A DNA stretch of 64,000 bases, from positions 29,330 through 93,329 of the forward strand of contig JAFGNA010000011.1 of NCBI GenBank assembly GCA_016927245.1, given 5' to 3'. Position numbers and translations under genes: made by a program. The stretch comes from Candidatus Woesearchaeota archaeon (GTDB lineage Archaea > Nanobdellota > Nanobdellia > Woesearchaeales > WJKR01). This document shows positions 3,001 to 43,658 of the stretch, in pieces. The stretch's first letter is position 1. Every line of letters starts with the position of its first letter. The notes below the pieces were generated by a model that was not told the origin of the DNA, ran no database searches, and saw only the letters and a program-made list of their open reading frames with translations.

Positions 3001-3714
3001 GGTCGTGGTATGCCACCCAGAATCGCCGGCACGGTTGTCCAAGTACCTGAAATCATGGAGAAAGACGTCATGACTATTCACTTTCGTAGGCCCGCCAGAA
3101 AAATCTACCTTTCCGGTAAGGTGATTAACGTCGAATACCATGAGATCGAACACTGCGAGTTCGCAGTCGTGATAGTTATCTTGCCATGCGCGCCAGTTGA
3201 AGCCGATGTTGTTGAGATCCGGTACACTATCGTCAAGGTCGTGGTAGAAGTACGCCCCGACGATGAAGATGCCACCGTCTTCCTGCCGGGTTATCTTCAA
3301 GGAAGTGTCCTGAACGCAGTTCAGGACGCAGCCTGGACAGTACCCTCGCTCAAGATAGTAGCTGGCGTACGGATTGAAATATTCAGAAACCTGACTCTTA
3401 TAGAAGGATACATAATCATCATAGGCCTTATCGCCTGGAACTGCTCCTTCGAGGGAATCCTTCACATCAGGACATCCAGTATCCAAAAAGCCACCGTTTA
3501 TGTGTATAGGGGGAAAAGGAGCCTCGAGCAGCACGATGAGGGATGTTTCGAGGTTGTCACCAGGTTTCACACCTCCCTGGCAAGACTCGCTTCCTAGGCC
3601 ATCATTGCCGCCTGAGTTCGAGATGAGTGTGACCGTGGCGTGCGCTGAGGGTGCAATCGCCAAGAGCACTACTAACAGTAGTAGCGATAGTGTCCCATTT
3701 GCTCGTCCATCCAT
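1..3714 (-). CDS. Large secreted cysteine-rich surface protein, >1237 aa. N-terminus is inside the window and the C-terminus lies beyond position 1.
   Basis: Minus-strand frame is open from the ATG at 3714 to the window edge. Spot translations at 3601-3714, 1801-1860 and 1-60 show no stops. The track lists no minus ORF in this frame because no stop falls in the window. N-terminus MDGRANGTLSLLLLVVLLAIAPSAHA is a signal peptide. There are many Cys, including repeated CCGDD and CxC motifs. Plus-strand ORFs across this region are antisense artefacts. Confidence 0.7.
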   Translation of the reverse strand, partial: MDGRANGTLSLLLLVVLLAIAPSAHATVTLISNSGGNDGLGSESCQGGVKPGDNLETSLIVLLEAPFPPIHINGGFLDTGCPDVKDSLEGAVPGDKAYDDYVSFYKSQVSEYFNPYASYYLERGYCPGCVLNCVQDTSLKITRQEDGGIFIVGAYFYHDLDDSVPDLNNIGFNWRAWQDNYHDCELAVFDLMVFDVNHLTGKVDFSGGPTKVNSHDVFLHDFRYLDNRAGDSGWHTTTDDTYDFSTLPEGVYFLTMMVRMQGDDTYSRDENAQVNIYEHWTLNADTVNRISEFPVYNRFLNQDDFLLVYDGDENQKFCEYAGGKYYDSERMTLPDKSYHCCGDDENEIGILSYTDDSGNTHYCTTGGWKTGEEERYCASNVEGAGPNVYQSFSTAVPWYSIGEITDGSDGCCGDDANFACRPSDVSSCSSITNQQDCDTVDQCSWKVTSADPQAYCQEHEVYAGDIPDGCDEQGHNAGCVAVADSYWSDEMGYVPSYSCEPSPSMQVIVSEECEGELETTPCSLYITQAACPDVTCTWTPITDGTDDYGHIEEDYLCLNDYDGNQEPQHIAIQDGQWQWWDAYEQEYTIHPDGEVDFISNGEKWFSCDVIGGAESSEDIVLSNYELLPPTTLTGIFYGDDSCHPGITDYALINPDPSDRTQQKWFNYILASECDMPVWNTDDPRMAYDTYVDSLGADLTDEEKKELKDSFIGCCEYEGGIPNDFEPTSGFEASSAGAGLSYVTNDYYTFFKPSLFGRECSSLVCKQDQENLPGGSDGDGGGGSGFADEDDARGPTSGTASFEERTCQELSSAITHTEVCEEEEHCVFFSGDGREVSTSGGTERCCLNGHCKLPEEETCEALGGMVTTGTGLTCLRGDVPEGQPYEVQALGMTEADCCLGKLDYDVGNAVIFEPRPNEAIMCYQDIYGESAFGECCSNENCQNAFLWDGDYLGEDNGKTFTPGNHLYTIESFDLLEQSFLRELTGENTIAVSGSGDHSISLHFTIPSRASQRFDSISFEMKYDDPAGLLRPESIDFYSSTTNVGSFALKDIAIINTLPSGIWNKFTIPIENQGLFYRYDITGANIVFARTSTPGSGDVTVYTDNFVFHEEDEEQEWFCAGDHRTWVRGLEPPNPEEASAEEVVPYAHACEEQFTTTWTGTYCCGADTKSTSYDQAEFYIDNVAACWAGRAVGDDMPVSRAFHSTAHWPHILFYDNAFYSCNEDESFTSIDDEKFSTNPA

Positions 3715-3795: not shown

Positions 3796-4359
3796 TCACA
3801 GCATTTCAAGAAAGTGTGCTCGTTCTTTCGGCGCGCGTACGCGGAGCGGTGTCGTGGCGAACGAGCTGGTCTGCGTGGCGGCGCCGTAGTTGCGTATGAT
3901 GCGCTTGTTCTGCTGCATCCTTCCGAGCACGCGCGCCTGGTCGGGGTTTCCTAAGAGCAGTGAGAGGTCGAAGCAGTACGTCTTCTTCTTCTCTGCGAGT
4001 ATCTTGGCGAGCACGTGGTTCATGCCGCTTCCGCGGTGGTGCGTCTTGTCCTTGTCCTCGAGCGTCTCCGCGCCGTGCAAGTACCGCACCTGCTTGCTTT
4101 CCGCTACGTCTCTCGTCGCGGTCCCGATGAGTTCGTCGTAGTGCTGCGCGTATTTCTGCGCTTCTCGTGCGTCTTTGATGAGGAGCGCTTTGCGGAGCTT
4201 GGCGTCCTTCACGCCTTCTTGGAGCTCTCTGAACGCGTCGTCGTTGGTCTTGTCGTGCTTCTGGAAGGCTATGAGGAGTTCTTTGGTGCCGAGCGACGCG
4301 GCGAACAGCGCGGTCTCGGTCGTGTTCTTGGCGTCGGTGTAGAGGATGATGTCTTGCAT
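3796..4359 (-). CDS. rnp3: RNase P protein component 3 (Rpp30)
   Basis: C-terminal half aligns with Pyrococcus Rpp30: G(M/I)(N/D)HVLAKIL..KK...FDLSLLL..NP..RA..LGRM. TATA TATTTAAAT lies about 30 nt upstream. Confidence 0.7.
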   Translation of the reverse strand: MQDIILYTDAKNTTETALFAASLGTKELLIAFQKHDKTNDDAFRELQEGVKDAKLRKALLIKDAREAQKYAQHYDELIGTATRDVAESKQVRYLHGAETLEDKDKTHHRGSGMNHVLAKILAEKKKTYCFDLSLLLGNPDQARVLGRMQQNKRIIRNYGAATQTSSFATTPLRVRAPKERAHFLEML

Positions 4360-4512
4360 GTGGTGGTCGTGGAAGCGAGAGGACTATTTAAATCATGCTC
4401 TCGTGCCCGGAAAAACTACTGGACAGGTGGAGGGTGAGGCTTTATAACGCCGCGTGCGTTCGCACGTATTCGACCGAAAGAAATAAATAATAATTATACT
4501 TATGTATAATTC

Positions 4513-35863: not shown

Positions 35864-37390
35864 ATGACCCTGACAGGGTATGCGGGAGGACAGGTGGCAA
35901 GCCACATGGTATCAGTACAAGAGCTCCTGGACAACGGCGTCCTCATCGACCCAGGACTCGTAGAGCAGGGAATACCAGGAACAGTCCTCGGGCGGATACT
36001 CGAGAAGTACGGCGAAGACCTCGTAGTCATAGAGAAAGACATGGTCGAAGAATGCGCCGACCCCCAAGAGACCGGCGGCGCGAACGTCGAGGTCATCTGG
36101 TCCTACGATCAAGAGCCGAAGAAGCGCACCTACGACGACTTCGTAAAGCTCCTCCAAACACGTTTCCGTGAGCTTGAACACCTGCTCAAGACGCGGCAAG
36201 AACTCGCCTCGACGACCTCCATCAACAGGATAAAAGCAAAGCAGGACCGCGACCACGTCAGCGTCATCGCCATGGTCAAAGACAAGTCCGAGACCGCGAA
36301 CAACAACATCATGCTCGTCCTAGAAGACTTCTCAGGAACCATCAAAGCGCTCATATCATGCAAGAAACAGGAATTGTTCGACCTCGCCAAGGACGTGCAA
36401 CTCGACGAGGTCCTCGGCTTCACCGGCATGGGAGCGGGCGACATCATCTTCGTGGACAACATCATCTTCCCCGACATACCACTCACCAAGGAGCTCAAGA
36501 AGGCACCAAGGGAAGAGTACGCGGCGTTCATAGGCGACCCGCACTTCGGCAGCAAGGCTTTCCTCAAGGACGACTTCGAGCGCATGCTCCTCTGGCTACA
36601 AGGGAAAGCAGGGAACGACGAGCAGAGAGCCCTCGCCGCGAAGGTGAGATACGTGTTCATCACCGGCGACCTCGTCGAAGGAGTAGGCGTCTACCCCGGA
36701 CAAGAAAACGACCTCACCATCAAGGACATCAAGGAGCAATACGCAGAAGCCGCCGAGTACCTCTCACGCATACCACCCCGCATGCGCATCATCCTCTTCA
36801 CCGGCAACCACGACGCCGGCCGCCTCTCAGAGCCGCAAGAGCCCATCATGCGCGAGTACGCCCCGCAGCTGTACCACCACCCGAACATCACGATCACGAG
36901 CAACCCATCCATGGTGAACATCGGCGCCGCCGACGGCTTCCCAGGCCTCGACTGCCTCCTCTACCACGGCGGCAGCTTCATCTACTACGCAGACACTATC
37001 CCCAGCATCAGGGCGGCAGGAGGCCAGAAACGAGTCGATCTCATCATGCGCTACCTCCTGCAACGACGACACCTAGCCCCGACGCACAACGCGGCCATGA
37101 CCATCCCCACTACTGACAAGGACTGGCTGCTCATCGACCGAGTCCCAGACCTGTTCATCAGCGGCCACATCCACCGCGTGAGCGTCAGCAACTACAGGAA
37201 CGTGACGTGCATCAACGCAGGTTGCTGGACAGAGATAACTGAGGACCAGGTGAAGCGAGGCCTGGAGCCGCAGCCGAGCAAGCTCATCATCATCGGCCTG
37301 CACAACAGGCAAGTAAAATTGATGAACTTCAAAAAGGAACGATCAGCGCCCGCTAAGAGGACGAGCGATGAAGAACAGGAGGATCCCTGA
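35864..37390 (+). CDS. dp1: DNA polymerase II (PolD) small subunit DP1
   Basis: Calcineurin-like phosphoesterase motifs GDPHFG, GNHD, GHIH. OB-fold N-terminal region. 508 aa. Confidence 0.9.
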   Translation: MTLTGYAGGQVASHMVSVQELLDNGVLIDPGLVEQGIPGTVLGRILEKYGEDLVVIEKDMVEECADPQETGGANVEVIWSYDQEPKKRTYDDFVKLLQTRFRELEHLLKTRQELASTTSINRIKAKQDRDHVSVIAMVKDKSETANNNIMLVLEDFSGTIKALISCKKQELFDLAKDVQLDEVLGFTGMGAGDIIFVDNIIFPDIPLTKELKKAPREEYAAFIGDPHFGSKAFLKDDFERMLLWLQGKAGNDEQRALAAKVRYVFITGDLVEGVGVYPGQENDLTIKDIKEQYAEAAEYLSRIPPRMRIILFTGNHDAGRLSEPQEPIMREYAPQLYHHPNITITSNPSMVNIGAADGFPGLDCLLYHGGSFIYYADTIPSIRAAGGQKRVDLIMRYLLQRRHLAPTHNAAMTIPTTDKDWLLIDRVPDLFISGHIHRVSVSNYRNVTCINAGCWTEITEDQVKRGLEPQPSKLIIIGLHNRQVKLMNFKKERSAPAKRTSDEEQEDP

Positions 37391-40300
37391 TGGCCAAGGA
37401 TGGCATGGCGTGCAGCCCCGCCATCAAGGCGTACTTCGACGATATCGAACGCAAGACGAAGAAAGCCTTCGAGGCGGCCACGGAGGCACGCCAACAAGGA
37501 TACGACCCTGAACGATTCGTAGAGGTCAAGCTCGCCAAGAACATGGCTGAACGAGTAGTAGGCATCATCAGCGTCGCGGCCCCGCAGATCATCGGCAGCG
37601 GCGTGACCGAGCGCATCATCGAGCTCGAGAAGGAGTACGGCCTCCAGGACTGGCGAGTCGCGTTCGTCATCGCGCTCGAGATAGCGCGGCAACGACACTG
37701 CTCCTTCAAGGACGAGCTCGAGGCGATAGAGGTAGGCGTCAGGACAGGGTTCGCGTACGTCACGGTGGGCGTGGTCTCCTCCCCGCTAGAAGGGCTGACG
37801 AGCATCGACATCAAGCGTCGCAGGGACGGCCGAGGAAGCTATTTCTGCCTGAACTACGCAGGCCCCATCAGGAACGCTGGGGGGACCGCCGCCGCAGTCT
37901 CAGTCCTCATCGCTGACTACGTTCGCAAGCACCTAGGCTACGCAAAGTACGACCCTGATGAGAAAGAGGTGCAGCGCTGCTACGCCGAGCTCGAGGACTA
38001 CCACCAATACGTCGCCAACCTGCAATACTACCCGTTCAAGGAGGAGTCCGAGTTCCTCATGCGGCACATCCCCGTAGAGATAGCCGGCGACCCGTCTGAG
38101 AAGCGAGAGGTGTCCAACGTCGGCGTCAAGGACCTCCCGCGCGTGCAGACCAACCACCTCCGCAGCGGCTACTGCCTCATCCACTCATCATGCATCCCGC
38201 TCAAGGCTCCCAAGCTATGGAAGCAGATCTCCAAGTGGAAGGAAGAGATGGGCATGGAGGACTGGGAATTCCTCGAAGAGCACATCAAGCTGCAGAAGGA
38301 GCTCAAGGCGAAGCAGGCAGAGCAGACAGCCCAGCACCAAGAGAGCGACGCGAAGATCAAGCCTGACGGCACCTTCGTCGCAGACCTCGTCGGCGGCCGA
38401 CCAGTACTCGGACACCCGATGAGGAGCGGCGGCTTCCGCCTCCGGTACGGCAGGAGCAGGGCTTCCGGCTACTCAGGACAAGCGACACACCCGGCAACCC
38501 TCGCCATCCTGAACGGGCTCATCGCCACGGGCACCCAGCTCAAAGTGGAACGGCCAGGGAAAGCCGCGGCGTTCACCACGTGCGACACCCTCATGGGGCC
38601 CATCGTCAAACTCGATGACGGCAGCGTGGTGTCGTTGCGGGACGAGGCGACCGCTCGTGAACTCTCCCCGCGCGTCAAGGAGATACTCTACCTCGGCGAC
38701 GCCCTCATCAACTATGGCGATTTCTTCGACCGCGCCCACGTCCTCGTCCCCCCAGGCTACGTCGAGGAGTTCTGGGCGCTCGAGGCCGAGGAGTCGTTGC
38801 GAGAGCACGGCGATGAGCCAGACGCGCGGCTACGGGAAGCGATCAATAACCCGCTCTCCACCAAGGTGTCTTTCTCAGAGGCAAAGTCATGGTCCTCTTC
38901 TTACGGCTTGCCGTTGCACCCCTCGCACCTGTTCTTTTACGCCGAGGTCGACAAGGAGCAGTTGCTCGCCCTCGCGTCCTGGCTTGGCAAGGCGTCGTTC
39001 ATGCTCGGAGGCTCCCCCAGCGTATCGCTCCCGCTCCCTCACCCTGGGAAGCGCACGCTCGAGCTGCTCGGCGTGCCGCACCGCGTCGAGGATGGCCTCG
39101 CAGTCGTGTCCGGCGACGACGCCCTCGCGCTCACGGCCACGTTGCGGGTGAGGAGTAAGGAGGAGGCGTCATCGCTCGAGTCGTTCGTCAAGGACGCGGA
39201 GGGCTCAGCGCTCAGCATCGTGCAGGAGCGAGCATCGTTCATCATCAAGGACAAGTCAGGATTGTTCATAGGGGCGCGCATGGGACGGCCGGAGAAGGCG
39301 AAGATGCGTAAGATGACAGGCAGCCCGCACACGTTGTTCCCCGTCGGCGCTGAGGGCGGCCGGCTCCGCAGCTTCCAGTCAGCGTTGGAGAAGGGGCTCG
39401 TCACCGCGGAGTTCCCCGTGTTCCTCTGCCCTGAGTGCGGTCATCGCTCCCCTTTCTCTGTGTGCGACAAGTGCGGCGCTCTCGGCGTTCGCCAGAAGGT
39501 TCATCCGCGAACTGAGGATCTCGTGCCGCCCGGGGCTGCTGAGGAATCAGGGATCGAGTTCCTTGACTTCAAGCGGTGGGGCGTGCCTATCAGGGACCTC
39601 TTCGACTATTGCTTGCGGCGCATGGGCACGAAGGTGTACCCTGACTTGGTCAAGGGCGTTCGCGGCACGGTAGGCAAGGACCACACCCCCGAGCACCTCC
39701 TCAAAGGCATCTTGCGGGCGAAGCACGACGTCTACGTGAACAAGGACGGCACGGTGCGGTACGACGCGTCAGAGGTCGCCCTGACGCACTTCAAACCGAA
39801 AGAGGTCGGGACGCCTGTCGCTCGTCTGCGAGAGCTCGGCTACACCAAGGATAATAAGGGGGAGGAGTTGCGGCGCGATGACCAGGTGCTTGAGCTCCGC
39901 GCCCAGGACGTCGTCCTGCCCGCCTGCCCTGACAGCCCTGATGAGGGGTCTGACAAGGTGCTCGTGAGCATAGCGAAGTTCCTGGACGAGCTGCTCGTCA
40001 CGTTGTACGGGCTCCCGCCGTTCTATAATGTCTCTTCTCGCGATGACCTCGTCGGCCACATCGTCGTGGGGTTGGCGCCGCACACCAGCGCAGGGGTGGT
40101 GGGGCGTATCATCGGCTTCAGCAAGACGCAAGGGTTCTTCGCGCACCCGTTGTACCACGCCGCTATGCGACGGGATTGCGATGGTGACGAGTCGTGCTTC
40201 TTCCTCCTCATGGACGCGTTCATGAACTTCTCCCGCCGCTTCATGTCAACGTCTCGCGGTAGCACCATGGACGCTCCTTTGGTGTTGACTACCTTGCTCA

Positions 40301-40932
40301 ACCCGGCAGAGGTGGATGACATGGCGTTCAAAATGGACATCGCTGATCATTACCCGCTCGAGTTCTACCGTGCGTGCCAGGAGTACAAGATGCCGTGGGA
40401 TGTTTCTGTCAGGAAGATCGGCGACGTCCTCTTCACCCCCGCGCAGTTCGAGGGTATGCGCTTCACGCACGGCACTGATGACATCAACGCAGGGGTGTTG
40501 TGCAGCGCGTACAAGCTCTTGCCGTCCATGGGGGAGAAGATTGCCGCTCAGATGGACTTGGCGGAGAAGCTGCGCGCGGTGGACACCGCTGATGTCGCTC
40601 GCTTGGTCATCGAGAAGCACTTCATCAGGGATACCAAGGGCAATCTGCGCAAGTTCTCATTGCAGCAGTTCCGGTGCGTGCAGTGCAACGAGAAGTTCAG
40701 GCGTCCTCCTCTGAACGGCCGGTGCTCCTCGTGCGGCGGCAAGGTCATCTTCACGATTTCTGAAGGATCAGTCACCAAGTACTTGGAGCCGTCGTTATTG
40801 CTCGCGGAGAAGTACGACCTGGACGCGTATTTGCGGCAGACGCTGGAGCTGACCAGGGTGCGTGTCGAGTCGTACTTCGGCAAGGAGAAGGAGAAGCAGA
40901 CAGGGTTAGCGGGCTGGCTGGGCGGCGGGTGA
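37390..40932 (+). CDS. dp2: DNA polymerase II (PolD) large subunit DP2
   Basis: 1180 aa. Conserved DP2 regions including Zn-binding CPECG..CDKCG and the catalytic region. No intein (canonical length). Confidence 0.9.
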   Translation: MAKDGMACSPAIKAYFDDIERKTKKAFEAATEARQQGYDPERFVEVKLAKNMAERVVGIISVAAPQIIGSGVTERIIELEKEYGLQDWRVAFVIALEIARQRHCSFKDELEAIEVGVRTGFAYVTVGVVSSPLEGLTSIDIKRRRDGRGSYFCLNYAGPIRNAGGTAAAVSVLIADYVRKHLGYAKYDPDEKEVQRCYAELEDYHQYVANLQYYPFKEESEFLMRHIPVEIAGDPSEKREVSNVGVKDLPRVQTNHLRSGYCLIHSSCIPLKAPKLWKQISKWKEEMGMEDWEFLEEHIKLQKELKAKQAEQTAQHQESDAKIKPDGTFVADLVGGRPVLGHPMRSGGFRLRYGRSRASGYSGQATHPATLAILNGLIATGTQLKVERPGKAAAFTTCDTLMGPIVKLDDGSVVSLRDEATARELSPRVKEILYLGDALINYGDFFDRAHVLVPPGYVEEFWALEAEESLREHGDEPDARLREAINNPLSTKVSFSEAKSWSSSYGLPLHPSHLFFYAEVDKEQLLALASWLGKASFMLGGSPSVSLPLPHPGKRTLELLGVPHRVEDGLAVVSGDDALALTATLRVRSKEEASSLESFVKDAEGSALSIVQERASFIIKDKSGLFIGARMGRPEKAKMRKMTGSPHTLFPVGAEGGRLRSFQSALEKGLVTAEFPVFLCPECGHRSPFSVCDKCGALGVRQKVHPRTEDLVPPGAAEESGIEFLDFKRWGVPIRDLFDYCLRRMGTKVYPDLVKGVRGTVGKDHTPEHLLKGILRAKHDVYVNKDGTVRYDASEVALTHFKPKEVGTPVARLRELGYTKDNKGEELRRDDQVLELRAQDVVLPACPDSPDEGSDKVLVSIAKFLDELLVTLYGLPPFYNVSSRDDLVGHIVVGLAPHTSAGVVGRIIGFSKTQGFFAHPLYHAAMRRDCDGDESCFFLLMDAFMNFSRRFMSTSRGSTMDAPLVLTTLLNPAEVDDMAFKMDIADHYPLEFYRACQEYKMPWDVSVRKIGDVLFTPAQFEGMRFTHGTDDINAGVLCSAYKLLPSMGEKIAAQMDLAEKLRAVDTADVARLVIEKHFIRDTKGNLRKFSLQQFRCVQCNEKFRRPPLNGRCSSCGGKVIFTISEGSVTKYLEPSLLLAEKYDLDAYLRQTLELTRVRVESYFGKEKEKQTGLAGWLGGG

Positions 40933-40984
40933 TCTGGAGGGTTTTTCTTTCTGGGTATGATTACTGTTAACACTCGAGCTTGGT

Positions 40985-41120
40985 CGATTTTCGTAGAAAA
41001 TCAGACGGAGCTGCAAGCGAAGTGACCAAGGTCGTGTTTAGCTCTTCCGAAGCCGCAGGCTGAGAGGACGCAGTCCGTGGGTCGAGGAGAACTTTTGTTC
41101 GACGACGAAGTCACTGTTCC
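40985..41120. repeat. Non-coding repeat element, copy A of a ~150-nt family
   Basis: ttcgtagaaaatcagacggagctgcaagcgaag...cgtgggtcgaggagaacttttgttcgacgacgaag is about 70-75% similar to copies at 41893-42045 and 42048-42090. Confidence 0.4.
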
Positions 41121-41213
41121 TATAACAAAAAAGAGAGAGTTGCCGCCGCTCATTCGTACCTTTTTAAACCAAAAACCAGAAGGTTTTTATAGTTATACAA
41201 ACTTATATACCTT

Positions 41214-41492
41214 ATGCCGCAAGCACTAGCAAAAAAAGAAATTCTACATTATCCTCGATTAGACACTGTTCTAATGGTTGAGGAGCTCATCAAAGAACAC
41301 TCAGGCGAGTACAAAAAAAAGGCACTTTGGGAGTCACTTCCAAAAGGAATGATGTATCAAACATTCTGTGTGGTCTTTGATTACTTGCTAGATTCAGGAA
41401 AAATCGCTCTAGATAAAGAAGGACACATCGCATGGATCTGGAATCCAGAACTCGTAAAAAAATACTTGTCAAAACCAGAACTTTGGGTGTGA
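41214..41492 (+). CDS. Putative antitoxin partner (92 aa, possible winged-helix)
   Basis: Small ORF ending 4 nt before the RelE-like gene start. Low GC. No recognisable RelB/Phd motif. Confidence 0.3.
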   Translation: MPQALAKKEILHYPRLDTVLMVEELIKEHSGEYKKKALWESLPKGMMYQTFCVVFDYLLDSGKIALDKEGHIAWIWNPELVKKYLSKPELWV

Positions 41493-41495
41493 ACC

Positions 41496-41825
41496 ATGGA
41501 GTCAAAGGTAACATTTGGAGATATAAAGCTCAAAGAAGCATATACTAAATTGAAGACTTCAAAAACTGAAGATCAAATGCTTTACAAATGGATAACAAGA
41601 GCAATAGATGATCTAAAAGTAAATGCCTTTTGTGGAACGCAAGTTCCAAAGAGAGTCATCCCAAAAATCTACACTGAGAAATACGAGACGGACAATCTTT
41701 GGAAATATGACTTGCCAAAAGGATGGAGACTCATCTACACTATAGCAAATGGCGAAGTACTTATCATTTCAATAATTCTAGAATGGATGACTCACAAAGA
41801 CTACGAAAAAAGATTCAAATACTAA
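41496..41825 (+). CDS. relE: RelE/ParE-family toxin (mRNA interferase)
   Basis: C-terminal KGWRLIYTIANGEVLIISIILEWMTHKDYEKRF matches the archaeal aRelE pattern (GDYRVIYSV....V.IL.L.PRG) and overall fold pattern. Confidence 0.5.
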   Translation: MESKVTFGDIKLKEAYTKLKTSKTEDQMLYKWITRAIDDLKVNAFCGTQVPKRVIPKIYTEKYETDNLWKYDLPKGWRLIYTIANGEVLIISIILEWMTHKDYEKRFKY

Positions 41826-41892
41826 AAAAGGCGGCAACTCTCTCAAAAACAATAAATAACAGTGATTGAGCTATACATCGGGCTTAAGGAGA

Positions 41893-42095
41893 GTTTCGAC
41901 TGAAAGGAGAAATTCGGGCGGAGTCTGCAAGACGAAGCTCTTTAAGCCCTGTTAAGTCGCCCCGAGCAATTTATTGCGAGAGCCTGCAAGGCGTGGGTCG
42001 GAGTAAAACTTGTTTTACGTAGAAGTAAAATTTGAGCTCTTAATATTCATTCGACTGAAGGGAGTCAAAATGTGCGGAGCACTAGTGGAAGCTTA
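41893..42095. repeat. Non-coding repeat element, copies B1 (full) and B2 (partial) in tandem; possible small structured RNA
   Basis: TTCGACTGAA(A/G)GGAG..GCGGAG repeated about 155 nt apart. B1 contains ggagtctgcaagacgaag and gagcctgcaaggcgtgggtcggag, matching copy A. About 45% GC. Confidence 0.4.
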
Positions 42096-42650
42096 TTAAA
42101 ATAATGAATCCTTAAAATAATCTTTGTAGTATATTGATCTTGAATTGCTAATTAATTTGTCATTATTATAATTAATTATTTCTAATGCTAGTTCTACATC
42201 ATAAAAATTTCTTTCAAAATATATTTCATTATTCTTGCTCCTATCATCAAAATATCCTAACCGTATTTGTTTTTGTTTTTCAATATCCTTTTCTCCTTTG
42301 AAAAGTTTAACTTGTATTTTTTGTTCAAGTGTTATTGGACTATAGAAACCTTCAAATACTAATTTTTTAATAGGTACTGTTTTTTTCGCAGGTACAACAT
42401 CTAAAATATATTTAGTTATCATACCACATTGAATATTTTGGACTGTAATCATATCTCCATAGATATCATCAAAACGTTTACCATCTTGTCCAATTGTTTC
42501 CCCATTATGATCTAGTGAGACTATCTTGATTGATTGGTGAACTATTTGAGATTCTGTAAGTATGTGTGCTATTTTAAATTCTTCAGTAACTATTAAATCT
42601 GAAATGCTTTTGTAAACTCGTTTCTTTGAATCCATATTATTGGAATTCAA
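42096..42650 (-). CDS. Hypothetical protein, about 30% GC, apparently foreign origin
   Basis: 184 aa. Strongly AT-biased codons unlike host genes. No recognisable motifs. Confidence 0.4.
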   Translation of the reverse strand: MNSNNMDSKKRVYKSISDLIVTEEFKIAHILTESQIVHQSIKIVSLDHNGETIGQDGKRFDDIYGDMITVQNIQCGMITKYILDVVPAKKTVPIKKLVFEGFYSPITLEQKIQVKLFKGEKDIEKQKQIRLGYFDDRSKNNEIYFERNFYDVELALEIINYNNDKLISNSRSIYYKDYFKDSLF

Positions 42651-42848
42651 TTTATCTATAAAAAGTTTTCCGCAGCTTTCACTTTTTGTTTCTTTTTTTT
42701 AAAAAGAAAGAGAGCTCAAATTTTATTCGACTTAACACGTATTTAGCGACCTTTTGGGAGCATAAAACGTGTTATGATTGCCGCGTAGCGGATGCTTTCC
42801 GGCTTCTTAGCTGTCATCGTTTTGAATTACTCTCTTTTTTGTTCCTTC

Positions 42849-43658
42849 ATGGATTATATGGCTCGTTTGCAGGAGGAGTGTGATCTTCGTGGTTTTAGCC
42901 GTCAGACTAAGAAGACTTATGCGTGTGTCGTCTCTTCTTTCCTCTGTTTTGTTGAGAAAAGAGGTTTAACCCTTGACAAGGTGGGTGTTAAGTCGTATTT
43001 GCTCTCCTTGCAGGTCTCTGCTAACGCCGCTCGCCTCTATCACGCCGCGCTCAAGTTCTTCTTCGCCAGCGTCCTCGATGACCCTTTCTCTGACGTGGAA
43101 GTCCCTAAGAAGCGGAAGCCTAAGATCCTTCCCAAGGTCCTCTCTAAGGAGCAGATCAAGAAAATCATTGATTCCACGGAGAACCTCAAGCATCGCCTTG
43201 TCATCAAGCTCCTCTACTCGTCTGGTTTGCGCCTCCAAGAACTCATCAATCTCAAAAGGGCGCATGTCGACTTCGACAGGGGTCTTATCAACGTCGTCCA
43301 AGGCAAGGGCAAGAAGGATCGGGTCACCCTCCTCTCAAATGAACTCCGGTTGGACCTCCTCAAATACTACAGCTTAACAACTTTCCAGACGCCGTACGTG
43401 TTCGAAGGACGAAAAGGCAAGTACAGCAAGAAGTCCGTGCAGAAGGTCTTGGAGAAAGCGGGGAAAGCCATCGATGCAGAGCTCACCCCGCACATGCTCC
43501 GCCATTCCTTCGCCACGCACCTCTTGGAGGCTGGCGTCGACATCCGTTTCATACAGAAACTTTTAGGTCACGCTGATGTGAAGACGACCGAGGTCTACGC
43601 GTACGTCTCCAATCAGTCGCTCGCCGCTATCGAGAACCCGTTGGATCGCTTGGCTTAG
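42849..43658 (+). CDS. Tyrosine recombinase/integrase (XerA/XerC/D-like)
   Basis: C-terminal catalytic HMLRHSFATHLLEAGVDIRFIQKLLGHADVKTTEVYAYV (H..R, H, Y) and N-terminal SAM-like domain. About 50% GC with T-ending codons (gat, cgt, ctt, ttt) unlike host C-ending usage. Likely start at 42849. Confidence 0.8.
   Translation: MDYMARLQEECDLRGFSRQTKKTYACVVSSFLCFVEKRGLTLDKVGVKSYLLSLQVSANAARLYHAALKFFFASVLDDPFSDVEVPKKRKPKILPKVLSKEQIKKIIDSTENLKHRLVIKLLYSSGLRLQELINLKRAHVDFDRGLINVVQGKGKKDRVTLLSNELRLDLLKYYSLTTFQTPYVFEGRKGKYSKKSVQKVLEKAGKAIDAELTPHMLRHSFATHLLEAGVDIRFIQKLLGHADVKTTEVYAYVSNQSLAAIENPLDRLA

What the first reader, a model, noticed from the sequence alone, without database searches (positions are those of the whole stretch)
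41127..41849. 712-bp cassette bounded by perfect 15-bp terminal inverted repeats carrying a RelE/ParE-like toxin gene pair and no transposase
GAGAGAGTTGCCGCC at 41133-41147 and its exact reverse complement at 41830-41844 flank two tightly linked small ORFs. The chance expectation of such a repeat pair is about 1e-9. Both repeats are flanked on the outside by A5-6 runs in direct orientation, resembling a target-site duplication. The downstream ORF has a RelE/ParE-like C-terminus and the upstream 92-aa ORF has no known antitoxin signature. A MITE-like element with a TA module as cargo would be an unusual mobile unit.
Basis: seen in the sequence. Interest (0 to 1): 0.7.

Follow-up and report, generated by a model that had tools for sequence, protein, structure and literature searches.

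The report
Toxin-antitoxin gene cassette next to xerA
The inverted repeat is real, but it is probably not the ends of a jumping element: it looks like the base of a folded recombination site belonging to one of two small gene cassettes, this one carrying a toxin-antitoxin pair, inserted integron-style next to a recombinase gene of a DPANN archaeon.

Summary
The perfect 15-bp inverted repeat (41133-41147 / 41830-41844) exists and is not chance. ORF2 has a RelE/YoeB/ParE fold. ORF1-ORF2 is a conserved two-gene module, widespread in DPANN archaea, with its own promoter and palindromic operator. The MITE reading fails: none of about 95 other loci of this module has the repeat, no second copy was found, and the A-runs are an internal loop between the 15-bp stem and a further 8-bp outer stem, not a target duplication.

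The pair lies in a 1.77-kb low-GC insertion between polD and a xerA-type recombinase gene. On the minus strand this reads as two cassettes (42735-41876 with a 184-aa ORF; 41875-40971 with the TA pair). Each ends in an AAC-hairpin-G|TT site, and each begins with a sequence complementary to its own site. The neighbouring cassette has its own perfect 15-bp repeat. Joined end to end, both cassettes fold into the same structure (z -5.8 and -6.8), with the 15-bp repeat as its base.

A second metagenome carries the first cassette with a different downstream neighbour; identity stops at the predicted crossover. Two relatives keep the hairpin beside xerA with another cassette or none. The recombinase lacks the IntI-specific domain. 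Verdict: an integron-like cassette, a new variant. Mobility and the recombinase are inferred.

The parts
40971..41875 (-). Cassette 2 (905 bp), the unit that carries the TA pair. It is read on the minus strand, from the crossover G(41876)|T(41875) to G(40971)|TT(40970-40969).
   Evidence: The 5' boundary is fixed by the abrupt end of about 95% identity with L162 at ...CCCGATG|T. The 3' boundary is inferred from the matching core GAGTG|TTAACAGTAAT. The first 9 nt of the circularised junction (GTATAGCTC) pair 8/9 with the site's own R''-like box GAGCTAAAC.
41133..41147 (.). Left arm of the 15-bp perfect inverted repeat (the finding). It is one strand of the basal stem of the folded cassette junction.
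41830..41844 (.). Right arm of the 15-bp perfect inverted repeat. It starts 4 nt after the ORF2 stop codon.
41111..41118 (.). Outer 8-bp arm TCACTGTT. It pairs with 41858-41865, and a 14/13-nt A-rich internal loop separates it from the 15-bp stem.
41858..41865 (.). Outer 8-bp arm AACAGTGA.
41184..41211 (+). Promoter of the TA module: TATA box TTTTTATA followed by the palindromic operator-like GTTATACAAACTTATATAC. The transcript is probably leaderless.
   Evidence: The motif TTTAAATAGTTATATA..TATATAAC is conserved immediately upstream of ORF1 in the related loci. Its function as promoter and operator is inferred.
41214..41492 (+). ORF1, 92 aa: putative DNA-binding antitoxin (winged-helix-like).
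   Evidence: It lies directly upstream of ORF2 in 85 complete modules. The search found 1767 homologues; the 30 sampled for alignment A5 are 70-90% identical to ORF1. It has a weak Mnd1-HTH match and a low-confidence model.
41496..41825 (+). ORF2, 109 aa: toxin of the RelE/YoeB/ParE superfamily.
   Evidence: AF2 pLDDT 84. Foldseek top hits are only RelE/YoeB/ParE/HigB toxins. Pfam YoeB and ParE matches have E about 1e-3.
40975..41042 (-). Recombination site of cassette 2: hairpin H1(A) (40975-41034) preceded on the minus strand by the R''-like box GCTAAAC (reverse complement of 41036-41042).
41043..41110 (-). Branch X(A): three small hairpins (H2-H4) between the basal stem and the R''-like box. 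It is homologous to X(B), with compensatory changes.
41876..42735 (-). Cassette 1 (860 bp): leader and promoter, the 184-aa ORF (42096-42650; probable start codon at 42638), a degenerate hairpin C (42043-42113), branch X(B), R'' ACTTAAC (reverse complement of 41951-41957) and hairpin H1(B) (41880-41949).
   Evidence: L162 is 88% identical at DNA level over 877 bp. The cassette start TTAAGTCG is complementary to its own R'' region CGACTTAA; with the flanking bases this makes 10/10 pairs.
42026..42040 (.). Left arm of the second perfect 15-bp inverted repeat (TAAAATTTGAGCTCT), the basal stem of cassette 1.
42711..42725 (.). Right arm of the second perfect 15-bp inverted repeat.
42733..42774 (.). 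Platform site J1: a 42-nt imperfect palindrome (TAACACGT..26 nt..ACGTGTTA) upstream of xerA. Cassettes join it at GTG|TTA on the minus strand.
   Evidence: It is conserved upstream of xerA in L079 (with a compensatory G-C to A-T change) and in L165. Homology to the window ends at the same nucleotide in each, and the continuations differ.
42849..43658 (+). XerA-type tyrosine recombinase (269 aa), divergent from the cassette array. It is the candidate recombinase.
   Evidence: NCBIfam recomb_XerA_Arch scores 218.9 bits against a cutoff of 220. The best PDB hit is P. abyssi XerA, E 7e-48. About 47 residues are missing where IntI4 has its specific domain. It is 60-65% identical to the DPANN XerA-like proteins of about 270-295 aa that fill the best-120 list of 4234 significant hits.
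37390..40932 (+). DNA polymerase II (PolD) large subunit: the host gene on the far side of the insertion.
   Evidence: NCBIfam NF003103, 1294.8 bits, above the cutoff.

Best explanation
The ORF1-ORF2 pair is a type II toxin-antitoxin module. ORF2 is a RelE/YoeB-like toxin. ORF1 is a small, probably winged-helix, DNA-binding antitoxin that would repress its own promoter through the palindrome between the TATA box and the start codon.

In this Woesearchaeota genome the module is the cargo of a 905-bp gene cassette. This is the second of two cassettes inserted by site-specific recombination at a conserved hairpin site just upstream of a xerA-type recombinase gene, in the way integron cassettes are stacked next to intI.

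On the minus strand each cassette has the order: crossover G|TT, short element a, arm b, cargo with its own promoter, arm b', a branch of three small hairpins, an AAC box a', hairpin H1, then G. When the cassette ends are joined (the circular form), a pairs with a' and b pairs with b'. The whole 220-245-nt junction then folds into one closed multi-branch structure. The 15-bp 'terminal inverted repeat' of the finding is b/b', the basal stem that separates cargo from recombination site.

Shown: the repeat, the toxin fold, the module's conservation, the cassette architecture repeated twice, the fold statistics, the shared cassette with a different neighbour in another metagenome, and the common junction next to xerA in relatives.

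Inferred: that cassettes excise and insert as circles, that single-stranded folding is the substrate, that the adjacent XerA-type enzyme is the recombinase, and that the TA pair is functional and stabilises the array.
For: (1) The two perfect inverted repeats of at least 15 bp in the 64-kb window (0.11 expected) each frame one of two adjacent low-GC gene units.

(2) The flanks are homologous units of about 160 nt. The consensus fold of the two window units has 35 pairs, 10 of them with changes on both sides. With the L162 copy added it has 39 pairs, 17 with compensatory change. So structure is conserved and sequence is not. With only two or three sequences this is suggestive.

(3) Read on the minus strand, each unit has an RYYYAAC-like box (ACTTAAC; GCTAAAC), then a hairpin of about 60-70 nt, then G|T. 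The first 8-10 nt of each cassette are complementary to its own AAC box (10/10 and 8/9).

(4) Circularised junctions fold with z = -5.8 and -6.8 (0 of 200 shuffles as stable) into the same architecture. The linear units alone give z of only -1.3 to -1.6.

(5) L162, from another sample and with 31% GC, carries cassette 1 at 88% DNA identity. Identity of about 95% runs to ...CCCGATG|T, after which the cargo is unrelated.

(6) The hairpin next to xerA is conserved in L079 (no cassette; compensatory stem change), in L165 (a different low-GC 157-aa ORF pointing away from xerA) and in L162. All four sequences diverge right after GTGTTA.

(7) The strand that would be the 'bottom' strand of the array folds better at both sites (-15.8 vs -11.8 and -14.8 vs -10.9 kcal/mol; RNAalifold -27.9 vs -12.8). 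Bottom-strand folding is a property of attC sites (established knowledge).

(8) TA modules are the commonest annotated cargo of archaeal and bacterial integron cassettes (PMC9668308).

(9) TA identity.
Against: The recombinase is XerA-type and lacks the IntI-specific domain, so this is not a canonical integron.

No attC covariance model was available. The R boxes fit the consensus only partly (GTATAGC and GTTAACA deviate). The spacers between the R-like and L-like stems are 1-3 nt rather than about 5. The bulged bases appear to lie on the opposite arm from canonical attC.

Canonical attC sites have no extra three-hairpin branch and no 15-bp outer stem.

This particular TA cassette was not seen anywhere else. 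Its 3' boundary rests on analogy, not on a second occurrence.

The upstream boundary of cassette 1 in L162 is cut off by the contig end.

The junction core motif alone is not statistically enriched in the window (3 hits against about 1 expected).

Only four related genomes were available. The weak inverted repeat in L165's cassette (10 nt, 90%) shows that a long basal stem is not universal.

L079's xerA-distal flank shows faint AT-rich similarity to the leader of cassette 1, which blurs the exact crossover point.
Confidence: 0.55

Rival explanations
1. One reading: a non-autonomous transposable element (MITE- or MIC-like). Its 15-bp terminal inverted repeats are recognised in trans by a transposase, it carries a TA module as passenger, and it made a 5-bp A-rich target duplication.
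For: There is a perfect inverted repeat with A-runs on the outer sides and no transposase inside. Mobile insertion cassettes with passenger genes are a known class (established knowledge).
Against: No other copy of the arms was found. They are absent from the rest of the window and from 94 TA loci at up to 3 mismatches. The only viral hits are unpaired and at chance level. Two more specific patterns gave nothing: both arms 0-30 nt apart in viral contigs, and the outer 8-mer plus the 15-mer in metagenome contigs.

Complementarity continues beyond the A-runs (8-bp outer stem), so the A-runs are not flanking target DNA.

The neighbouring cassette has an unrelated 15-bp repeat placed at the same position relative to the flanking unit. 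This fits a structural stem, not two different transposons.

The arms have the roughly 50% GC of the site module, not the roughly 36% GC of the cargo.
Confidence: 0.06
2. The ~160-nt units are copies of a structured non-coding RNA (or a cis-regulatory RNA). The 15-bp repeat acts at RNA level, for example as a long-range stem that insulates, processes or stabilises read-through transcripts across the TA module. The genes were inserted between RNA gene copies by unrelated events.
For: There is compensatory variation in several hairpins. There are about 7 G-U pairs on the + strand, whose consensus fold is better than that of the minus strand. DPANN archaea are known to use GC-rich complementary flanks to join split RNAs (established knowledge).
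Against: No Rfam family matches, even at E up to 5. The TA promoter lies inside the repeat, so the TA mRNA does not contain the left arm. No bulge-helix-bulge motif can be drawn between the two stems (sequence inspection). The units alone fold no better than shuffles, whereas the circular junctions do. An RNA-only model does not explain the cassette shared with L162, whose identity ends at G|T, or the common junction at the xerA hairpin.
Confidence: 0.12
3. Xer/dif exploitation in the classical sense (IMEX or 'dif module'). The hairpin beside xerA would be this lineage's dif site, and the cassettes would be double-stranded elements bounded by dif-like XerA core sites.
For: A XerA-type gene is adjacent, and the site beside it is conserved among relatives. 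In bacteria, TA modules occur in dif modules, and CTX phage integrates as a folded single strand using XerCD (established knowledge).
Against: No site of the form 11-bp arm, 4-10-bp spacer, 11-bp arm lies at any cassette border. J1 has 8-14-bp arms separated by 16-26 nt, unlike the described archaeal dif (11-6-11; PMC2958812). In Thermococcales, dif is not next to xerA (same paper).
Confidence: 0.12
4. There is no dedicated mechanism. The island is a hot spot of illegitimate insertions, and the perfect repeats are by-products, such as halves of a pre-existing palindrome split by insertion or inverted duplication during repair.
For: The TA module is found in many unrelated chromosomal contexts without any repeat. 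About 10% of loci show long, locus-specific direct repeats, which suggests messy insertion events.
Against: The host shows no use of long-stem hairpins or terminators. Two independent perfect repeats with the same placement, a/a' complementarity in both cassettes, conserved hairpin structure despite 34% sequence divergence, and a reused junction nucleotide in four genomes are hard to get without a site-specific process.
Confidence: 0.1

Closest known systems
Integron gene cassettes and attC sites, including archaeal integrons and CALINs (Ghaly et al. 2022, PMC9668308)
   Same: Small cassettes (860 and 905 bp) are stacked next to, and pointing away from, a tyrosine recombinase gene. Each ends in a hairpin site bounded by AAC...G|TT boxes. 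The site's structure is conserved but its sequence is not. The cassette start is complementary to its own R''-like box. The same cassette is found with different neighbours. The bottom strand folds better. The cargo is a TA pair with its own promoter.
   Different: The recombinase is XerA-type and lacks the IntI-specific domain. The platform site is itself a hairpin rather than an attI. The cassette sites carry an extra three-hairpin branch and a long basal stem (the 15-bp repeat). The R-box consensus and spacer lengths are only partly met. Both cassettes have their own promoters.
IMEX elements and CTX-phage-type integration by XerCD; Acinetobacter pdif modules
   Same: A housekeeping-type Xer recombinase rather than a dedicated integrase is the candidate enzyme. 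The CTX phage substrate is a folded single-stranded hairpin. pdif modules often carry TA pairs and are bounded by inversely oriented sites.
   Different: No dif-like 11-6-11 core sites lie at the borders. The repeats differ between cassettes. Here the sites are hairpins with AAC/GTT boxes.
MITEs and mobile insertion cassettes (MICs)
   Same: An inverted repeat frames a short unit without a transposase that carries passenger genes.
   Different: There is no family of copies, no target duplication and no cognate IS. The repeat continues as an interrupted stem and is part of a larger folded site.
Type II toxin-antitoxin systems of the RelE/YoeB/ParE superfamily (e.g. YefM-YoeB; P. horikoshii RelBE)
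   Same: The toxin fold matches. The antitoxin gene is upstream, with a 3-nt gap to the toxin gene. A palindrome lies at the promoter. The two genes strictly co-occur.
   Different: The antitoxin matches no known antitoxin family. Both proteins are unusually conserved (70-90% identity to ORF1 and 62-80% to ORF2 in the sampled alignments) across DPANN and other archaea. Catalytic residues and activity are untested.

Membership tests
MITE / mobile insertion cassette | Terminal inverted repeats at the very ends of the element | tested here: inconclusive
   A perfect 15-bp repeat exists. But pairing resumes 13-14 nt further out (8 bp), and the unit defined by comparison with L162 ends 31 nt beyond the right arm.
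MITE / mobile insertion cassette | Target-site duplication flanking the repeats | tested here: not met
   The only candidates are the A6 and A5 runs. These form the internal loop of the interrupted stem.
MITE / mobile insertion cassette | Multiple copies, or a related autonomous element with the same ends | tested here: not met
   None in the window, none in 94 related loci, none paired in viral contigs, none in metagenome contigs with the extended end pattern. The rest of the host genome could not be searched.
Type II TA, RelE/ParE superfamily | Toxin with the RelE/ParE fold | tested here: met
   AF2 pLDDT 84. The top 30 or more Foldseek PDB hits are all RelE/YoeB/ParE/HigB/YafQ toxins.
Type II TA, RelE/ParE superfamily | Conserved adjacent small partner gene in an operon with the toxin | tested here: met
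   ORF1 homologues lie directly upstream of ORF2 homologues in 85 complete modules.
Type II TA, RelE/ParE superfamily | Toxicity neutralised by the partner; autoregulation at the operator | not testable with these tools
   Only the conserved palindrome at the promoter is seen.
Integron | Integrase of the IntI type with the additional domain around patch III | tested here: not met
   In the alignment to V. cholerae IntI4 (2a3v), query residues 173-193 face IntI residues 180-247, so about 47 residues are absent. The protein aligns end to end with P. abyssi XerA.
Integron | attC sites: imperfect hairpins bounded by RYYYAAC and GTTRRRY, with structure conserved rather than sequence | tested here: inconclusive
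   ACTTAAC/GTTAAGT fits 7/7. GCTAAAC fits 6/7, and GTATAGC and GTTAACA fit 5/7. The hairpins covary. No attC covariance model was available, and the spacers and bulge polarity look atypical.
Integron | Cassette boundaries at G|TT, with the same cassette found among different neighbours | tested here: met
   W and L162 lose identity at CCCGATG|T. W, L162, L165 and L079 diverge after GTGTTA beside xerA. This was shown for cassette 1 and for the platform junction, and is inferred for the distal end of the TA cassette.
Integron | Mostly promoterless ORFs, co-oriented and expressed from Pc | tested here: not met
   Both cassettes carry their own TATA-box promoters, and the TA pair is inverted relative to the array. 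This is known to be usual for TA cassettes (established knowledge).
Xer/dif (IMEX, dif modules) | Borders formed by dif-like core sites (two ~11-bp inverted arms with a 6-8-bp spacer) | tested here: not met
   The scan for 11-N(4-10)-11 sites finds none at any border. The definition is taken from PMC2958812.

The most novel reading that the evidence does not exclude
A lineage of Woesearchaeota has an integron-like gene-capture platform built on its XerA-type recombinase rather than on an IntI. A conserved hairpin beside xerA would serve as the docking site. Cassettes would carry large folded recombination sites (an AAC-hairpin-GTT core, a three-hairpin branch and a long basal stem) and recombine at G|TT. 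Such a system could be a living analogue of the step from Xer/dif to integrons. Because the basal stem marks the seam between cargo and site, it could also bear on how cassettes acquire their cargo.
Probability: 0.3. Interest if true: 0.8.

Novelty: new variant of a known kind. Interest (0 to 1): 0.62.

Why it matters
Integrons were reported in Archaea only in 2022. They were found with bacterial models, and very few integrase genes were detected. If small cassettes with atypical folded sites are captured next to a XerA-type gene that lacks the IntI domain, three things follow. Model-based surveys would be missing a class of archaeal gene-capture platforms. DPANN archaea would have a defined route for exchanging accessory genes such as TA modules. 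And the evolutionary link between chromosome-dimer resolvases and integron integrases would become testable with one enzyme and three short DNA substrates. If instead the enzyme acts in trans from elsewhere, the locus is an ordinary, though atypical, cluster of cassettes lacking an integrase, with a TA cargo.

Tried and rejected
1. Other copies of the repeat. The window at up to 3 mismatches gave 4 hits against 3.6 expected, and only the two arms are exact. Viral contigs gave 66 unpaired 15-mer hits, which is chance level. The two arms within 0-30 nt (an intact palindrome) gave no hit in viral contigs. The outer 8-mer plus the 15-mer gave no hit in metagenome contigs.

2. Rfam at gathering and at E up to 5 gave nothing except tRNA-Ala.

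3. Pre-existing terminator hairpin split by insertion. The host has no excess of terminator-like hairpins and no long-stem short-loop palindromes in intergenic DNA.

4. dif-like sites at the borders: none.

5. tRNA-targeted integration. L006's flanking 'direct repeat' is just two different intron-containing tRNA-like genes.

6. Synteny or an empty site via polD-xerA adjacency. The neighbours of xerA differ in relatives. The empty-platform evidence came instead from the xerA-proximal hairpin.

7. L094's 14-bp inverted repeat as a second example. It is within the null range, its upstream flank is coding, and it has no site module.

8. Arm-like sequences at the ends of other TA loci: scattered hits only.

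9. The unit HMM against about 1 Mb of fetched loci hit only the window, its duplicate L001, and L162.

10. The junction core regex is not enriched in the window.

11. The ORF1 structure has too low confidence for a fold search. PDB sequence searches for ORF1 and ORF2 were not significant.

12. A bulge-helix-bulge (archaeal intron) reading of the two stems cannot be drawn from the sequence.
Full report
OBSERVATION. The sequence contains GAGAGAGTTGCCGCC at 41133-41147 and its exact reverse complement at 41830-41844. Between them lie ORF1 (41214-41492, 92 aa) and ORF2 (41496-41825, 109 aa) and nothing resembling a transposase. A perfect inverted repeat of 15 bp or more, with arms within 1.5 kb, is expected 0.11 times per window of this composition. 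The real signal is that the window holds exactly two such repeats. Both are in one 1.8-kb low-GC island, and each frames a gene unit: the second (42026-42040 / 42711-42725) frames a 184-aa ORF on the minus strand. The A-runs next to the arms are real, but pairing resumes beyond them (TCACTGTT 41111-41118 with AACAGTGA 41858-41865). They are therefore an internal loop in an interrupted stem, not a target duplication.

THE GENES. The host is a Candidatus Woesearchaeota MAG with about 58-60% GC. The segment from about 41150 to 42800 has 20-40% GC. It lies between the PolD large-subunit gene and a tyrosine recombinase gene, which is followed by aIF-2 beta and tRNA-Ala. ORF2 has only sub-threshold Pfam matches to YoeB and ParE. 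However, its AlphaFold model (pLDDT 84), built on a 30-sequence family alignment, matches only RelE/YoeB/ParE/HigB/YafQ toxins in the PDB. ORF1 has a weak winged-helix match and a low-confidence model of compatible topology. The two genes occur together, in this order, in 85 complete modules from genomes and metagenomes. The promoter-plus-palindrome motif TTTAAATAGTTATATA..TATATAAC just upstream of ORF1 is conserved in the eight related loci examined in detail. This is a type II TA module of the RelE superfamily whose antitoxin belongs to no described family. Activity is untested.

WHY IT IS NOT A MITE. DNA similarity among loci of this module runs only from about 45 nt upstream of ORF1 to the ORF2 stop codon. 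The arms lie outside that. No other locus has the arms. They do not recur in the window. Pattern scans of public collections found only unpaired, chance-level 15-mers. Elsewhere the module sits among housekeeping genes with no repeat.

THE FLANKS. The non-coding DNA on the two sides of the TA segment (40960-41130 and 41865-42050) is a pair of diverged direct repeats (about 66-70% identity), with a partial third copy and an inverted fragment further right. Their hairpins are kept by compensatory substitutions. The two window units share 35 consensus pairs, 10 of them changed on both sides. With a third sequence there are 39 pairs, 17 with compensatory change. With so few sequences this is suggestive only. 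In both full units the left arm of the long inverted repeat starts right after the unit's conserved ...GAAGT (and sequence inspection). This ties the repeats to the units rather than to the cargo.

THE KEY COMPARISONS. A contig from an unrelated sample (L162, 31% GC) is 88% identical at DNA level to window 42743-41875. That stretch covers the leader, the 184-aa ORF and the following unit. Identity of about 95% runs to ...CTCCTTAAGCCCGATG|T. Beyond that point L162 carries a different leader and a 271-aa ORF, where the window carries the TA segment.

On the other side, the 42-nt palindrome at 42733-42774, just upstream of the recombinase gene, is conserved in the closest relatives of that gene. 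L079 has it with a compensatory stem change and no inserted genes. L165 has it followed by a different low-GC 157-aa ORF pointing away from the recombinase. L162's first 24 nt match it as well. All four sequences diverge immediately after GTGTTA on the minus strand.

Read on the minus strand, the island is therefore two cassettes, 42735-41876 and 41875-40971. Each ends with an RYYYAAC-like box, a hairpin of about 60-70 nt and G|T. Each begins with 8-10 nt complementary to its own AAC box.

WHAT THE REPEAT IS. I joined each cassette's 3' end to its 5' end, as in an excised circle. Both junctions then fold into the same structure: a basal stem (the 15-bp repeat, plus the 8-bp outer stem in the TA cassette), a branch of three small hairpins, and an R''/R' stem stacked on the main hairpin. 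These folds are far more stable than shuffles (z -5.8 and -6.8). The linear units alone are not (z -1.6 and -1.3). Part of this z-score comes from the repeat itself, but the a/a' pairing and the common architecture are independent of it. The strand that would be the array's bottom strand folds better at both sites. The finding's 'terminal inverted repeat' is thus best read as the seam between cargo and recombination site in a cassette.

COMPARISON WITH KNOWN SYSTEMS. The layout is that of an integron: a tyrosine recombinase gene, a docking site, and stacked cassettes with structure-conserved hairpin sites and G|TT junctions. TA cargo is the commonest annotated cargo in archaeal integrons (PMC9668308). 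But the recombinase aligns end to end with P. abyssi XerA and lacks about 47 residues where V. cholerae IntI4 has the IntI-specific domain. It is also 60-65% identical to the many DPANN XerA-like proteins that fill the list of best hits. The docking site is itself a hairpin. The cassette sites have an extra branch and a long basal stem. The R boxes fit only partly. So I do not file it as an integron. It works like one, and membership fails on the integrase criterion.

A classical Xer/dif (IMEX or dif-module) reading fails because no 11-6-11 core sites lie at the borders. The held literature describes no XerA-linked cassette arrays in archaea.

WHAT IS SHOWN AND WHAT IS INFERRED.
Shown:
- the repeats and their rarity;
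- the toxin fold and the conservation of the module;
- the repeated cassette architecture and the fold statistics;
- the shared cassette with a sharp boundary;
- the common junction beside xerA.

Inferred:
- circular intermediates and single-strand folding as the substrate;
- XerA as the enzyme;
- the 3' boundary of the TA cassette;
- the function of the basal stem;
- TA activity and any array-stabilising role.

VERDICT. Novelty: a new variant of a known kind. Interest: 0.62.

Noticed in passing
window 42026-42040 / 42711-42725: A second perfect 15-bp inverted repeat (TAAAATTTGAGCTCT) frames the neighbouring 184-aa ORF. It is the only other repeat of this kind in the window.
   Followed up: yes
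window 42096-42650 (minus); L162 127-663; L163 3150-3686: The 184-aa ORF belongs to a rare family with no known function: 13 hits among 1.8 billion cluster representatives and no Pfam match. More distant members are ordinary chromosomal genes among housekeeping genes. Only the window and L162 carry it as a cassette.
   Followed up: partly
L004 3569-3656 / 4337-4424; L101 613-795 / 1435-1615; L126 652-698 / 1451-1497; L099 1505-1542 / 2199-2237; L154 2583-2634 / 3370-3421: About 10% of loci of this TA family (7 of 66 with enough flank) are bracketed by long, locus-specific direct repeats of 22-183 bp, perfect in L004. The downstream copy starts 0-8 nt after the ORF2 stop in L004, L101, L126 and L099 but 39 nt after it in L154. 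They could be target duplications, successive recombination sites or duplicated leaders. This is unexplained.
   Followed up: partly
alignments A4 and A5 (ORF2 and ORF1 families): Both TA proteins are unusually conserved for a TA pair. Mean column identity is 77%, and the 30 sampled ORF1 homologues are 70-90% identical, across Woesearchaeota, Pacearchaeota, Nanoarchaeota, Aenigmatarchaeota and Thermoplasmata-labelled MAGs. This suggests recent spread or strong constraint.
   Followed up: no
L005 3345-6001: Two complete copies and one partial paralogous copy of the TA module lie in tandem within 2.7 kb.
   Followed up: no
L165 66-539 (minus), 50-64 / 577-592: A third cassette-like unit lies next to the xerA hairpin in a relative: a 157-aa ORF with a weak nucleotidyltransferase (Polbeta) match (E 0.07). 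It has only a weak bracketing repeat (GTGCCCC core).
   Followed up: partly
L080 about 47-95: A more distant xerA relative (65% identity) also has a hairpin (AACATCTA, 24 nt, TAGATGTT) upstream of xerA. A xerA-adjacent palindrome may therefore be a wider DPANN feature.
   Followed up: no
window 41124-41137 / 42830-42843: A 14-bp inverted repeat (AACAAAAAAGAGAG) brackets the whole island. It is low-complexity and not conserved in L079, so it is probably chance.
   Followed up: partly
window 42043-42113: Inside cassette 1 there is a degenerate extra copy of the main hairpin (unit C) without R boxes. It may be a remnant of a fused or decayed cassette site, and it is not conserved as a hairpin in L162.
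   Followed up: partly
L006 3510-3625 and 4325-4400: Two tRNA-like genes on the minus strand, apparently with introns, were missed by ARAGORN and by Rfam at the gathering threshold.
   Followed up: no
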